Shown piece by piece: positions 27,701-36,700 of a stretch of DNA of 64,000 bases; position 1 is the first letter of the stretch, and each line of letters opens with the position of its first letter. The position numbers are program-made. The DNA comes from Laetmonice hystrix (taxonomy: Eukaryota): the NCBI GenBank assembly GCA_965235115.1, contig OZ249439.1:7440001-7504000 (forward strand), read 5' to 3'.

Positions 27701-30700
27701 AACGCACCACATTTACAGCACTTTACAAACCAGTAAAACCCCTGTCGATCTGTGGGTGTATTTCCCTGACGAGGGGTCATTTTGAGCTGGGCCATTGAGA
27801 CGTGGTAGGGGCATGGGGCGTGTACTACTGAGGTTGTGTTTAGTTGAATATGGTTTGGATTTAGAGCAGGCTTTTACACCTCAGCAACAGTGAGGATTAT
27901 ATTACTGAGGTAGTCACTTTTATTGGTGAAGGGAGTACCTGGGGAAAACACCAACCTTGCAGCAAGTCCTGATCTCACGTCCAGCCTGAAGGAGATTTGA
28001 ACCCATGTGGGGTGTGGTTTCTATTGGGTGGACTTACCTGAGGCGGGCGTAGCGTTGGGTGGGGCCATCGAAGTGTCCATCGGCTGCCCTCCGTCACTGC
28101 TGATGTCATGGATGGTGGATTGGGGCGAAGTGTTCGGGTCTTGAGCTTGGTAAGCCGGTGGTGGTGTGTCGGCTGAGGACAAATAATCATCTGTAACAGG
28201 TGGCAGCATTTGTTTCTACAACTCCCTGTCCTTCAGCTGATCACTCAGGCCAAACCAGGTCATTCAATCGGTATCCAGAAAATGTCAGTACTACTTTGAG
28301 ACAACTTTTTCATCCACTGCACAAGCATCATATTCAAATCACAATAAATGTTTATGCTGAAAAAAAAGTATTCATGAAGTGAAATGAAAGAGGACAAAGG
28401 ACCTAAGGCTAAGAGTGTCTAAGCAGTAACATATTTATAGATTTCTCGTCACATGGAGCAGGAAGTTGTATTTACCTGGGTGTCCGAAGGGACTGCCTGG
28501 GCCTGAGTTGTTGTTGGACTGTTGGAAGCCATGTGGATAGGACACATTGTAGGGCATGGATGGCTCTTGGACCTGCTGGAATGGCGCCAGGCCATGCGGG
28601 ACAGAACCACTCGGATATTCGCTGTATCGCGGCACCAAAACTGGCGGCAACACTGTAAAAAACAGCAATTACACATCATACATGTATAACCAGTTTTAGA
28701 TTTACCAACATCATACAACCAATTTTAGATAATTAACAACATCATACAAGCATTCCCAACATCATACAACTGTTACTAACTCACTTACAATTTACTGCTC
28801 TATTTCATGTACAACTTTTCTCTTTCCAGACATTCTGATAATAACTGAGTTACGCCTGGTGACTGTGCATCTATAAAAAAATCACAAAATTAGCCAGTGC
28901 TAGGATGACCTTAACAGTGGAAATTCCATAGAAATCATGTGTAGCTCTATCTAGGAAAGCATGGATTCCATCAATTATCTCAAAAGATAAAAGATGTGGG
29001 GGGGGGGGGGGTTCTTTGTCCTGCTCGACCACCAAAGCTTCCTTTATAGAGTGACAGCAGCCGATTGGGGAGTAATCTTGGGGCCGGGGCTTTATTTCAT
29101 GTTTATAACCTCCAAAGGTTATTTTCCTTTCTGCCCGTTTCACCCACTCAGGCTCCTGATCCCGCTGAACTAGTCTATGATCAACTGGCCCATGTTCCTC
29201 ATCCAACTATTTCCAAACTTGTCTCATGATGGTCAATGCATCATTAGTTGCCTTACTAAGCAACGTTAATGAAGTTGTTGTGAAAGTGCCTTGGGCCGAA
29301 CCTAGCGCCACCTAGAGGGATGAGGCTCACCTAGTCAGTATATCCCCATATCGCGCCCTCTGGCGGATCGTGTAAATCGGCCGCCTCAGTTTGGCCCCAG
29401 AAGGGTAGAATCTATATAAGCCTGGGTTTCCCGCGATAACGAGAGAGTTGTTGCAAGTTTGTCGTCCTGTGAGGAGCCCCACGCGGTTACCTTACAGGCC
29501 GATATTGCAATCCTCGGCCTATGCCGCCATAGCCCAGTGACCATTGGTCTACTGTGCTGGCCTAGTAGGCCCTCGCTAACCCAGAGCGTTTAACCGCCTC
29601 CACCTACTCGGTCGCCCGGGCTACTGTCGGGTGACGACCGGTATTTGGTAGGCTTTATACCTGACGACCGCCCCTAGTCCTATCGGACTCCGTTTAGTGA
29701 CTAGGGAAACACTGACCACGGACTACGACATTGGTTACGGACCAAACACATTGACCACGGACTGACCCTGATATTGACCCCGGCAACAACCACGGACCAT
29801 CCCTGTGATACGAAATATACCCACTCCAGTGGCAGGCCCGACATAGTCGACAAGCAGGCCGCTACGGTAAGTGTATTTCTATCGTGCCAGTGGAAAGCCC
29901 ACGGCTATCCCGAACCGTGCTGTAGTGACACGGCCCAATTGCACTACAATTGGTGTCAGAAGTAAAGTAACTGGCACGACAGTTATTAGTGAAACCACAG
30001 TTTCACTACAATTGGTGTCAGAAGTAAACTAACTGACACGGTAGTTGAAACCACAGTTTCACTACACGTAGTTGAAACCACGACACTCACTAATTGGTAG
30101 AGTCGACGGCACACTCCTACTACAGTAGTGAGTGAAAAACGTGCGGCATTGCCAGCGCTTAGATTTCCCGCGCAGAGCAGCACGCAGACGTTTGGCTGCA
30201 CTCTAGATCTATTTGTGTTTACTCTTTCACATCTCCGTTTTCAGCATAGTCAATTGTTTGAAGCGGGGGGGGAGGTTGTGTAGAGTTTAACTTGTAGATT
30301 TGTCCAATTTGGTCAAAGTTGTGATTTGCACCAGTACACGTGCACCCATTCACACGCCACTCAGTACCTCTCGTGTGCGCGGTGAAGCGCGACGGTGGGC
30401 CAACTTGAGTGTTGACCGAGCTTATTGATTAGCCTAATATTGCTGAACTGTATTTTTGCTCGTACTACGTATTTGTGCATCTATACTAGCTTCACATAAT
30501 TACAGCGTAAGTTAAGCCTAACTTCGCAGTAACTAGGGCTACTCACTAAAAGTGACATAGAGGTGACGATTTGCATACGCATAGCGACTGATATGTGACT
30601 GGTGAGTGGTGCCACATATAGCCCCACTCTGCCAGACCACCGGTGCGTTCGTTCCCTGCTATAGAATAGTGGTATAGGAGCATAAACTGTGCATTCTCTG

Positions 30701-33700: not shown

Positions 33701-36700
33701 TATCTGCCCTGAGATAACAACTAGTCGCACTATGTATCCACTCCTATTGTTTTCTGGATGTAGCAATTTCCAAATGACTGTTCCAGACACCCCGTTCAGT
33801 CAACAGGTAAGCTGTCCCACTTTCACATCTATGTATTTGCAAGGAAACATCGAAGAGACTCGATGGTGCTGGGAGGGGGTGTTGTTGTGAAAGTGCCTTG
33901 GGCCGAACCTAGCGCCACCTAGAGGGATGAGGCTCACCTAGTCAGTATATCCCCATATCGCGCCCTCTGGCGGATCGTGTAAATCGGCCGCCTCAGTTTG
34001 GCCCCAGAAGGGTAGAATCTATATAAGCCTGGGTTTCCCGCGATAACGAGAGAGTTGTTGCAAGTTTGTCGTCCTGTGAGGAGCCCCACGCGGTTACCTT
34101 ACAGGCCGATATTGCAATCCTCGGCCTATGCCGCCATAGCCCAGTGACCATTGGTCTACTGTGCTGGCCTAGTAGGCCCTCGCTAACCCAGAGCGTTTAA
34201 CCGCCTCCACCTACTCGGTCGCCCGGGCTACTGTCGGGTGACGACCGGTATTTGGTAGGCTTTATACCTGACGACCGCCCCTAGTCCTATCGGACTCCGT
34301 TTAGTGACTAGGGAAACACTGACCACGGACTACGACATTGGTTACGGACCAAACACATTGACCACGGACTGACCCTGATATTGACCCCGGCAACAACCAC
34401 GGACCATCCCTGTGATACGAAATATACCCACTCCAGTGGCAGGCCCGACATAGTCGACAAGCAGGCCGCTACGGTAAGTGTATTTCTATCGGGAACCAGT
34501 CAAACCGTCACACGGCCAAACCGTCACCTGTGACGGTTTGACCGTTTCGTTTTGAGCAGATGTGACGGTTTGACTTTGCTTCCTGGGTCCAGAGCCCGGA
34601 CAAGACCCGGCCCCCGGCCGGCCGTGTGGTCGCTGCCGCGTACGCCAGTCAAACCGTCACACAGGCAGGGCAGCAACCGAGGCCGGCGAGGGCTGCCATA
34701 CCCCCTACCCGGCCGGGCTGCTGAGGCTGGGGGCGGAATACACGGCGTATGATTCTCGGCAATTGTTTAAAAGATTATATAGATCCGCCTAGCCATATCC
34801 CGCTCTCTACCGACCGGCTGAGGCCCCTGCTTCAACAAGCCCAGGCCGAACCGACCGGCCGAGGCCCCCTACAACTTAGTACAAGCCCCGGCAGCGAGCG
34901 AGCGGCCGGCGGTCCCGCGGCAGCTTGAGCGAGTAAGCGAGCGGGCGAGTGACCGGCCACCGCTCCCTCGCTCACCCCGGGCAGGCGGCTCGGCGGCCCT
35001 CCAAGGGGCTCATTATGACGAGATTATTTCGCCGCGGGCTCAAGTGATGTGATACCGGGGGGCGATGGTAGACAGTTCATAATATTCGCGGCTAAAACGG
35101 CCAATGTAGCCAGGATAAACTAATCTTGTGGTAGGTAGGGCCAAGGCGTATACATACTATAGCTGGGCCCACTCTATTAGGAATATCTAGCGAGGGTGAG
35201 GGTGAGACTTCGAGGCCACAGGATGGCAGTGATGATGTGACGGTCTGACCACCGGGGACTCGCCTGCCTGTGACGATCTGACTGTGACGGTTTGACTTTC
35301 ACCGTGTGACGGTTCGGCCATGTGACGATTTGACTGGTATTCTTTCTATCGTGCCAGTGGAAAGCCCACGGCTATCCCGAACCGTGCTGTAGTGACACGG
35401 CCCAATTGCACTACAAAATGAACAAGAAAAAAAAATTATTTGGCCAATTATTTCTGTTTTGATACTGGAACCCTGGGCAGATTGAATACCCCCAGGGCAA
35501 TTTGTTTTATAAATGGTGTGCTTGGTGTGTCCACAGGCGCATCCTGTTCAGGCTGCCAGTTTCTCCGACACACTGTTGTGACCAAATCCCAGCTGGACCG
35601 GTGGCCGACCTATTTAATTTTCTTTAATTGTCCTTTGTCATGCAATTAAGCTGTGTTTTACGAGGCACACAAAGAAGTGGATTAGGAAGCAGAAAAAGGT
35701 GCACTTCTTGAGACACTTAGAGTGAGACTTTACAAGTTTAATTTCATCTTTTCATAAATTAATTTAGCCGAATTCTATATATCTCTCCCCACTATTAGTA
35801 CATGCATCCCCCCCTTTACAGTAACTTTGATGGCACCATATGTGGGGAGGCCACTGGCTGGTTGGGAGGGGGCGGGGGGGGGGGGGGCTGGGTGGTGACT
35901 CAGCCCCTATCACACCCTCTGTCACACTTGCCCCTAGGGACTCTCCCCCAGTACCGGCCCCACTACCCTGCTATGCCACCTTCCCAGAGCCAAACCTCAT
36001 ACCACGGGTCCCATTTGTCAGAAGGTGTCAATCTTAATGTTTCATTCATGACGCATCATGTCAGACAGGTCCAGTCCTCCCTTTATCCGGCTGGCGTGCC
36101 CTCATTCTCAACACTCTGCTCACTCTGGCAATATTCTAACTGTGAGGAGTCCTTCTTTATTGACCAGATGTTAGCCATGGACAACCGCCTGAAAAAATTG
36201 TCATCGGCTCTGTCCCTAAAATGGCTAATACTAGTGGAAGTCATGAAGTTACAGTTTTCACTCTCCCACAACGTCAACATGACAATTTTTGTTTCTCTTT
36301 CAGAAAAGAGTTGTACAATCTTTTAAAAATGTTTTGGTCTGCCACGGTTATAAAAAGTTAAAAAGAGTCCAAATTTGCAGAGCCCGTAGAGATGGCCGGT
36401 ATGGGCGAGAATGTATTGTCATACAAGGGTTATCATGTATCTCCTAGCCACTCCCATTATACACCGGACAGGCAGACAAAGAAATGGATTACTCTACTAC
36501 TAGTGCACTTGCCAAACAGCAGGTCGAGTTGACCAGTACTACACCAACCGTGGCGACTAGTCATCATCTGTCACTGCCCACCACTCAGTGATGGTCAAAC
36601 CTTTTGTCATACAGGTCAGCCCACTGCCACCACAGTGTCTTATGACCTTTAACCTCATCTGAACTGAGCTTGGGCTGAGGTAGTAGGCATGTCCACAAGC

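What the first reader, a model, noticed from the sequence alone, without database searches (positions are those of the whole stretch)
29276..35415. Young gag-only LTR retroelement with no pol, inside a Smad1 intron
Seen: LTRs with no mismatch found by eye, PBS and PPT present, an intact 553-aa Gag, a 1.6-kb leader, and only about 650 bp between gag and the PPT with no protease, RT or integrase motifs. Known: gag-only non-autonomous elements (TR-GAG type) are described mainly from plants and need pol in trans. Inference: an active animal lineage that keeps its own capsid while borrowing pol, or a recent single internal deletion. It makes up over half of the 11.4-kb intron and may be polymorphic.
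Basis: partly seen in the sequence, partly recalled or inferred. Interest (0 to 1): 0.65.

Follow-up and report, generated by a model that had tools for sequence, protein, structure and literature searches.

The report
Young gag-only LTR retrotransposon copy
A very recently inserted jumping gene of the Ty3/gypsy kind, which keeps its capsid gene but has no copying enzymes of its own, sits backwards in an intron of a Smad1-type gene and was later hit by a second, smaller transposon; this is an ordinary kind of defective mobile element, of interest mainly as a sign of recent transposon activity.

Summary
The element is real: window 29274-35416 (+), 6143 bp, flanked by a 6-bp duplication (AATGAA). 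It has a purine tract before the 3' LTR, a TGG-stretch after the 5' LTR, a 1617-bp leader, an open 553-codon gag and a 652-bp non-coding spacer. The 676 bp shared by the LTRs are identical.

Gag has a confident two-lobed capsid fold, but its zinc knuckle is incomplete. Its nearest relatives (at most 47% identical) include Ty3/gypsy Gag-protease-RT-RNaseH-integrase polyproteins. No trace of pol was found in the element or anywhere in the window.

The host gene is a BMP-type R-Smad on the minus strand. The intron is 11,368 bp and the element, antisense to it, fills 54%.

Best reading: a very young non-autonomous pol-less derivative made with enzymes from another element. Whether it belongs to an amplifying gag-only lineage or is a one-off deletion could not be tested, because no eukaryotic genome collection was open. 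Partly deleted LTR elements copied in trans are known in animals (mouse IAP, ETn). I score it a new member of a known kind, modest interest.

The parts
29268..29273 (.). Left copy of the 6-bp target-site duplication (AATGAA)
   Evidence: identical to 35417-35422 and directly abutting the repeat boundary found
29274..29949 (+). 5' LTR, 676 bp, 55% G+C. Termini are 5'-GTTG...ACAA-3' with a short imperfect terminal inverted repeat. TATA-like TATATAA at 29413-29419. No AATAAA.
29951..29962 (+). Primer-binding-site-like stretch starting with TGG, one base after the LTR; cognate tRNA not identified
   Evidence: sequence; 0 tRNA genes in the window
29950..31566 (+). Leader, 1617 bp, with no recognisable coding content. 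Its first part holds a 62-bp tandem duplication (29942-30066) that repeats the LTR end and the TGG-stretch.
   Evidence: Pfam on all stop-free frames of 25 aa or more gave no family at or above its cutoff. tblastn of 150 relatives found nothing at E<=0.01.
31567..33228 (+). gag, an open 553-codon frame plus its stop codon (0 stops, 0 frameshifts)
   Evidence: Pfam Retrotrans_gag 28.7 bits, cutoff 24.1. 3880 relatives at E<=1e-3.
32344..32856 (+). Capsid domain of Gag (residues about 260-430), two-lobed and all-helical
   Evidence: AlphaFold2 pLDDT 90-98 over these residues. Foldseek matches to PNMA2 capsid (TM 0.72 by target), dArc1/dArc2 capsids (0.66-0.71) and the Copia and Ty3 capsids.
33166..33204 (+). 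Zinc-knuckle-like stretch at the end of Gag; incomplete, below Pfam's cutoff
   Evidence: zf-CCHC 16.0 bits vs cutoff 20.8, profile positions 2-14 of 18; strict pattern absent; present in 101 of 150 relatives
33229..33880 (+). Spacer between gag and the 3' LTR, 652 bp, with no similarity to protease, RT, RNase H or integrase. This is where pol lies in relatives.
33871..33879 (+). Polypurine tract GGGAGGGGG
33881..35416 (+). 3' LTR, 1536 bp. It holds the same 676 bp as the 5' LTR at 100% identity, in two pieces, plus the nested insert and its 9-bp duplication.
34492..35342 (.). Nested non-coding DNA transposon, 851 bp, 60% G+C. It has about 33-nt terminal inverted repeats and 7 copies of a 17-nt subterminal motif. 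It is flanked by TTTCTATCG at 34483-34491 and 35343-35351; the duplication could be read as 8 or 9 bp.
   Evidence: No Pfam family in its frames. The site is unoccupied in the 5' LTR.
35417..35422 (.). Right copy of the 6-bp target-site duplication (AATGAA)
28653..40020 (-). Host intron of 11,368 bp that contains the element in antisense orientation
   Evidence: GT after 40021 and AG before 28652 were read by eye, and the reading frame continues across.
40021..40435 (-). Host exon with the MH1 domain of a BMP-type R-Smad; the start codon is not settled
   Evidence: Pfam MH1 146 bits. Best solved relatives are SMAD5, SMAD9 and SMAD1 MH1, E 1e-77 to 1e-84.
28476..28652 (-). Host linker exon that follows the intron
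   Evidence: open frame bounded by AG and GT
23919..24752 (-). Two host frames with the MH2 domain: 24477-24752 (profile positions 1-66) and 23919-24338 (profile positions 63-174)
   Evidence: best solved relative SMAD1 MH2, E 2e-89

Best explanation
This is a real, very recently integrated, non-autonomous LTR retrotransposon of the Ty3/gypsy (Metaviridae-like) kind. It retains gag but has lost the whole of pol.

Shown:
- Two LTRs identical over all 676 shared positions, and a 6-bp target-site duplication.
- A purine tract before the 3' LTR and a TGG-stretch after the 5' LTR.
- An open gag whose product has a confident retroviral-type capsid fold.
- Relatives whose Gag is fused to protease-RT-RNaseH-integrase.
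- No pol trace in the element.

Inferred from the textbook cycle of LTR elements:
- The RNA ran from the 5' LTR to the 3' LTR.
- It was reverse-transcribed from a tRNA primer and from the purine tract.
- It was integrated with a 6-bp staggered cut by protease, RT, RNase H and integrase that another, autonomous element supplied.
- Its own Gag may or may not have taken part, since its zinc knuckle is incomplete.

After integration, an 851-bp non-coding DNA transposon landed near the end of the 3' LTR.

The element lies antisense in the intron between the MH1 exon and the linker exon of a BMP-type R-Smad gene.

Not decided: whether the loss of pol happened in the copying event that made this copy, or earlier in a master copy. 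The second case would make it one of a gag-only lineage.
For: LTR pair and identity: (676 of 676 shared positions identical; the 95% upper bound on divergence is about 0.0044 per site).

Duplication and tracts.

Gag:
- Pfam Retrotrans_gag above its cutoff.
- 3880 relatives at E<=1e-3 and 25 at E<=1e-30, the best 46-47% identical.
- 39% identity over 216 residues to the Gag part of an 1806-aa polyprotein of Patella caerulea, E 1e-44.
- Capsid fold.

Of 39 of the 150 relatives scanned with Pfam (top ranks and long ones), 10 carry an aspartyl protease, 4 carry RVT_1, and 1 carries the full set protease, RT, RNase H, integrase zinc-binding domain and integrase core in that order.

No pol:
- 321 stop-free frames of 60 aa or more over the whole window gave no protease, RT, RNase H or integrase family.
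- 40 frames of 25-59 aa in the leader and spacer gave none.
- tblastn of 150 relatives gave 154 matches at E<=0.01. Of these, 153 lie inside 32065-33264 and 1 lies outside the element.

Stand-alone relatives end at the same point as this Gag, so the gag stop looks native and pol would be expected just after it.

The nested insert is absent from the 5' LTR and has its own duplication, so this locus has a history after integration.
Against: - Only one copy could be seen. There is no second copy, solo LTR or partner in the window.
- No close relative exists in the protein sets. The word-index search found 1 hit of near length and none longer, and the best representative is 46-47% identical.
- The tRNA for the TGG-stretch is unidentified.
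- Under the only reading that gives a duplication, the LTR termini are GT...AA rather than the common TG...CA.
- Neither LTR has AATAAA.
- The zinc knuckle is incomplete, so this Gag may not bind RNA as its relatives do.
- Loss of pol in place after integration, or in assembly, is not excluded. There are no N runs, but no reads were available.
Confidence: 0.7

Rival explanations
1. The copy was integrated as a full element, and pol was removed afterwards by a genomic deletion at this locus.
For: The locus has changed since integration: a transposon landed in the 3' LTR. A relative, P0006, shows an internal loss of RT, RNase H and the integrase core within one reading frame, so internal deletions do occur in this group.
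Against: The LTRs have 0 differences in 676 shared positions, so there has been little time. The deletion would have to remove about 4 kb cleanly, leaving no detectable pol residue on either side.
Confidence: 0.1
2. Assembly artefact: the real locus holds a full element, and the assembler collapsed or skipped pol.
For: Young repeats with identical LTRs are hard to assemble, and no read data could be examined.
Against: There are no N runs in the window. The two LTRs differ by a bounded insert with its own duplication, which argues for a properly resolved locus. The gag stop matches that of stand-alone relatives.
Confidence: 0.07
3. It is one member of an amplifying gag-only lineage, an animal counterpart of plant TR-GAG. 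In that case gag is kept by selection, and pol is habitually borrowed from an autonomous Ty3/gypsy partner.
For: - The copy is very young and was integrated with a duplication.
- No pol remnant is left.
- The leader is long and non-coding, with a duplicated LTR-end and TGG unit.
- The incomplete knuckle suggests the source was already diverging from a fully functional element.
Against: A single copy was seen. No close relatives are in the protein sets. An incomplete knuckle argues against strong selection on this Gag. The element is 6143 bp, above the TR-GAG size limit.
Confidence: 0.3
4. It is a domesticated gag-derived host gene of the Arc, PNMA or RTL type, not a mobile element.
For: The fold and feature searches place the capsid domain nearest to PNMA2 and dArc capsids and to PNMA-type clusters.
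Against: It is framed by identical LTRs, a target-site duplication and a purine tract, which domesticated genes lack. It lies antisense inside another gene's intron.
Confidence: 0.02

Closest known systems
Ty3/gypsy (Metaviridae-type) LTR retrotransposons of invertebrates, e.g. the 1806-aa Gag-Pol of Patella caerulea (KAK6172537.1, shown)
   Same: The Gag capsid region is homologous: 39% identity over 216 residues, E 1e-44. The same Pfam gag family matches, and a zinc knuckle sits at the same place. The element has LTRs, a purine tract and a short target duplication.
   Different: The window's element has no protease, RT, RNase H or integrase at all. The N-terminal 257 residues of its Gag have no relatives, and its knuckle is incomplete.
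TR-GAG elements of plants (Chaparro et al. 2015, PMC4350172; abstract and passages read)
   Same: LTR-element features with a single ORF for Gag and no enzymatic machinery. No autonomous partner was found for the founding family either.
   Different: TR-GAGs are defined as shorter than 4 kb and were described in plants, and their founding family has a Copia-type (UBN2) Gag. This element is 6143 bp, in an animal, with a Ty3/gypsy-type Gag. Family status (several copies) could not be tested.
Mouse IAP 1-delta-1 and ETn/MusD (review PMC6466679; passages read)
   Same: They are animal LTR elements with internal deletions that are non-autonomous, rely on proteins supplied in trans by full-length relatives, and still make most new insertions. 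Intronic insertions and orientation effects are also described there.
   Different: They are class II endogenous retroviruses of mammals. IAP 1-delta-1 keeps a gag-pol fusion and ETn has no coding capacity, whereas here gag is whole and pol is wholly absent.
HeT-A of Drosophila (PMC6581046; passages read)
   Same: It is an animal retroelement that encodes only Gag and is thought to depend on the RT of a related element. It is described as effectively a TAHRE element missing its RT domain.
   Different: HeT-A is a non-LTR (jockey-clade) element specialised for telomeres, with a different integration mechanism.
LARD and TRIM non-autonomous LTR elements (as named in PMC4350172)
   Same: LTRs, PBS and PPT without the enzymes; mobilised in trans.
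   Different: Those have no coding capacity, whereas this one has an open gag.

Membership tests
LTR retrotransposon (structural definition) | Two direct long terminal repeats | tested here: met
   676 shared positions, 100% identical
LTR retrotransposon (structural definition) | Short target-site duplication abutting the LTRs | tested here: met
   AATGAA on both sides
LTR retrotransposon (structural definition) | Polypurine tract just upstream of the 3' LTR | tested here: met
   GGGAGGGGG at 33871-33879
LTR retrotransposon (structural definition) | Primer-binding site complementary to the 3' end of a tRNA | tested here: inconclusive
   A TGG-stretch lies one base after the 5' LTR. No tRNA gene is in the window, and no eukaryotic tRNA set was available to match it.
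LTR retrotransposon (structural definition) | TG...CA termini | tested here: not met
   Under the reading that gives the duplication, the termini are GT...AA. This feature is common but, from recall, not universal among Ty3/gypsy-type elements.
Ty3/gypsy (Metaviridae-type) | Gag homologous to Gag of elements with pol in the order protease-RT-RNaseH-integrase | tested here: met
Ty3/gypsy (Metaviridae-type) | Own pol with RT before integrase | tested here: not met
   pol is absent. The element is therefore filed as a derivative of this group, not as a full member.
TR-GAG (Chaparro et al. 2015) | LTR-element features with one ORF, coding for Gag, and no enzymes | tested here: met
TR-GAG (Chaparro et al. 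2015) | Length under 4 kb | tested here: not met
   6143 bp, of which 860 bp are the nested insert plus its duplication; criterion from the abstract
TR-GAG (Chaparro et al. 2015) | A family of several copies with signs of activity | not testable with these tools
   There is no other copy in the window and no eukaryotic genome collection was open.
Domesticated gag gene (Arc/PNMA/RTL type) | No LTRs; fixed, conserved locus | tested here: not met
   Identical LTRs and a duplication are present; conservation of the locus is not testable.
Nested insert: cut-and-paste DNA transposon (non-autonomous) | Terminal inverted repeats plus a target-site duplication, and an unoccupied site for comparison | tested here: met
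   33-nt arms 91% complementary. TTTCTATCG on both sides, and an intact site in the 5' LTR. The superfamily is not assigned: from recall, an 8- or 9-bp duplication fits Mutator-like, Merlin or hAT types.

The most novel reading that the evidence does not exclude
The copy belongs to a currently amplifying lineage of gag-only Ty3/gypsy derivatives in an animal. Such a lineage would keep its own capsid gene under selection while habitually using the enzymes of an autonomous partner. It would be an animal counterpart of plant TR-GAG, with a lineage-specific 257-residue N-terminal Gag extension and a long leader.
Probability: 0.3. Interest if true: 0.55.

Novelty: new member of a known kind. Interest (0 to 1): 0.3.

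Why it matters
The locus records two mobile-element families that were active very recently in this genome: a Ty3/gypsy-type element, then a small cut-and-paste transposon that landed in its LTR while the LTRs were still identical. Both sit inside a key developmental signalling gene, so the locus is a good candidate presence/absence marker and a possible modifier of Smad transcript processing.

If a census showed many copies with the same architecture, it would extend the gag-only non-autonomous LTR class beyond plants. That class appears only in plant papers in the literature I could search. It would also give a natural system for asking, by comparison of sequences, why a parasite of a parasite keeps its capsid gene.

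As it stands, internally deleted LTR elements that depend on relatives are well known in animals.

Tried and rejected
- Word-index protein searches. Gag at near lengths gave 1 hit, probably because low-complexity N-terminal words crowded the candidate list. Gag at longer lengths gave none. The SAM-domain ORF, used to place the host, gave none. All 3 searches are spent.
- Names for the nearest relatives. 9 of the 10 clusters looked up are unnamed records, and I did not try to trace them.
- Rfam at gathering thresholds over the window gave 0 matches.
- The promoter and terminator scan uses bacterial consensus patterns and says nothing here.
- Solved structures by sequence gave no significant match for Gag, best E 0.45; only the fold comparison worked.
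- One Pfam call with whole-region translations was rejected because the frames hold stops. The same regions were then scanned as stop-free frames.
- One marginal tblastn match of P0010 lies outside the element at 23304-23423, E 0.006. I take it as chance among 150 queries.
- Domesticated-gene reading: rejected because of the LTRs and the duplication.
So copy number, partner and polymorphism stayed unchecked.
- Supplements of the papers were not seen. Those of PMC4350172 may list families that bear on the size criterion.

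
Full report
**What is there**

A self-comparison of 28000-37000 finds two repeat pieces. Window 29274-29884 equals 33881-34491 (611 bp, 100%), and 29876-29949 equals 35343-35416 (74 bp, 100%). The 5' LTR is therefore 29274-29949 (676 bp) and the 3' LTR is 33881-35416 (1536 bp). All 676 shared positions are identical.

The six bases outside each end are the same, AATGAA at 29268-29273 and 35417-35422, so the element is 29274-35416, 6143 bp. Under this reading the LTR termini are GT...AA, with a short imperfect terminal inverted repeat, not the common TG...CA.

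Other features:
- A purine run GGGAGGGGG (33871-33879) ends one base before the 3' LTR.
- A stretch beginning TGG (29951-29962) starts one base after the 5' LTR.
- The window has no N.
- The window holds no other copy of the element or of the nested insert.

The 3' LTR is 860 bp longer than the 5' LTR. It carries an 851-bp insert (34492-35342, 60% G+C) with these features:
- arms of about 33 nt that are 91% complementary;
- 7 copies of a 17-nt subterminal motif, against 0.17 expected by chance;
- a duplicated TTTCTATCG on both sides;
- the same site, unoccupied, in the 5' LTR.

Its frames match no Pfam family. It is a non-autonomous cut-and-paste DNA transposon that arrived after the retroelement did. 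The duplication can be read as 8 or 9 bp, so I leave the superfamily open. From recall, Mutator-like, Merlin or hAT types fit. I compared the LTR pieces on either side of it apart.

**Gag**

The frame from the first ATG (31567) to the stop (33226-33228) is open for 553 codons.
- Pfam gives Retrotrans_gag at 28.7 bits (cutoff 24.1) and a partial zinc knuckle at 16.0 bits (cutoff 20.8).
- The strict knuckle spacing is absent here and present in 101 of 150 relatives.
- An exhaustive profile-free search of 1.84 billion representatives finds 3880 relatives at E<=1e-3, 866 at 1e-10 and 25 at 1e-30. All match only residues from about 110-260 onward, and the best are 46-47% identical.
- The N-terminal 257 residues are peculiar to this protein.
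- AlphaFold2 with a 60-row alignment gives pLDDT 90-98 for residues about 260-430, plus long helices at 11-93 and 465-507.
- Foldseek against solved structures places the confident domain with PNMA2, dArc1/dArc2, Copia and Ty3 capsids; 6 matches have E<=0.001.
- The Atlas feature search agrees, as a lead only.

**Which kind of element**

I scanned 39 of the 150 relatives with Pfam, chosen by rank and length. Of these, 10 have an aspartyl protease after the knuckle and 4 have RVT_1. One, an 1806-aa protein of the limpet Patella caerulea, has protease, RT, RNase H, integrase zinc-binding domain and integrase core in that order. The window's Gag is 39% identical to it over 216 residues. That is the Ty3/gypsy order.

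Stand-alone Gag relatives end at the same point as this Gag. The stop therefore looks native, and pol would be expected just downstream.

**No pol**
- All 321 stop-free frames of 60 aa or more in the 64-kb window were scanned, and none hits a protease, RT, RNase H or integrase family.
- 40 frames of 25-59 aa in the leader and spacer give nothing at or above a cutoff.
- tblastn of the 150 relatives gives 154 matches at E<=0.01. Of these, 153 fall within 32065-33264, and one marginal match (E 0.006) lies outside the element at 23304-23423.
- At E<=10 nothing credible appears in the leader, spacer or LTRs.

Counting breaks as asked: gag has 0 stops and 0 frameshifts, with one motif incomplete. 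pol is not broken but wholly absent.

**Host gene**

- On the minus strand, one frame holds a whole MH1 domain (146 bits). Its best solved relatives are SMAD5, SMAD9 and SMAD1.
- Two frames hold MH2, with SMAD1 the best solved relative at E 2e-89.
- The MH1 exon ends at 40021 before GT. An open frame bounded by AG and GT at 28652-28476 continues the reading frame.

These splice sites are my reading; no tool predicted them. The intron is then 28653-40020, 11,368 bp, and the element is 54% of it and antisense to the gene.

The gene is of the Smad1/5/9 class; I cannot name the paralogue. I do not take the contig for human. Its neighbours are a FANCF-like frame and a SAM-plus-kinase gene, and it carries very young transposons. 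The host species was not determined.

**How it most likely works**

The anatomy is that of an LTR element copied through RNA: LTR promoter, tRNA-primed minus strand, purine-tract-primed plus strand, and integration with a short staggered cut. Only the anatomy is shown; each step of the cycle is inferred.

Because the copy has no enzymes, they must have come from another element, unless pol was lost in place afterwards. Zero differences in 676 shared LTR positions put a 95% upper bound of about 0.0044 per site on LTR divergence. There has been little time for a later deletion, although the nested insert shows that some events did happen in that time.

The incomplete knuckle suggests the source was no longer a fully functional element. 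This leans slightly towards an older non-autonomous lineage, but it equally weakens the idea that this Gag is kept by selection.

**Comparison with what is known**
- The term TR-GAG occurs in 19 papers of the library, and the 15 listed are on plants or plant tools.
- The founding paper defines TR-GAG as under 4 kb with one Gag ORF and found no autonomous partner (abstract and passages). This element fails the size criterion.
- Searches for 'gag-only' with retrotransposon terms (11 papers; 1 paper) and for 'non-autonomous LTR' with gag and metazoan (16 papers) turned up no described gag-only LTR family in animals. These are word searches of an open-access subset only.
- Animals do have close analogues. 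Mouse IAP 1-delta-1 and ETn are partly deleted or non-coding LTR elements that need proteins in trans and cause most new insertions (passages).
- Drosophila HeT-A is a gag-only non-LTR element thought to depend on the RT of a related element (TART) (passages).
- Nematode genomes are annotated with many LTR elements lacking at least one protein (passages).

**Verdict**

The class is known and this is a new member. The more novel reading, a living gag-only lineage in an animal, is open at about 0.3.

- copy number;
- the partner element;
- the primer tRNA;
- polymorphism;
- assembly correctness.

Noticed in passing
window 29942-30066: The last bases of the 5' LTR together with the TGG-stretch are tandemly duplicated (period 62, 2.1 copies, 86% matches). 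A second primer-binding-like site therefore lies 62 bp into the leader, and a further 27-bp repeat follows at 30028-30092.
   Followed up: partly
window 34492-35342: An 851-bp G+C-rich non-coding DNA transposon with inverted ends and repeated subterminal motifs is nested in the 3' LTR. It has no other copy in the window, and its superfamily is not assigned.
   Followed up: partly
protein P0006 (unnamed record): A relative has gag, knuckle and protease followed directly by integrase C-terminal domains, without RT, RNase H or the integrase core. This shows that internal deletions occur among relatives too.
   Followed up: no
window 35802-36326 (+): An ATG-started 174-aa ORF lies just downstream of the element in the same intron, with no Pfam family.
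   Followed up: no
window 48762-49073 (+), 52274-52555 (-), 55606-61216 (+): Neighbouring genes are a Methyltransf_32 piece, a FANCF-like frame, and a long SAM-domain ORF followed by protein-kinase exons. The SAM ORF found no relatives in the word-index search.
   Followed up: partly
window 29866-29872 and 31073-31080: Splice-donor-like GGTAAGT / GGTGAGT strings lie near the end of the LTR and in the leader. The 1.6-kb leader might hold an intron; this was not tested.
   Followed up: no
window 26341-26389: A short A-rich microsatellite made of overlapping AATAAA units lies in another Smad intron.
   Followed up: no
proteins P0035, P0066, P0090; P0046, P0096, P0098, P0131: Some more distant Gag relatives carry a Macro domain or a helix-hairpin-helix domain upstream of the capsid region. 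These are unusual N-terminal additions to a retrotransposon Gag.
   Followed up: no
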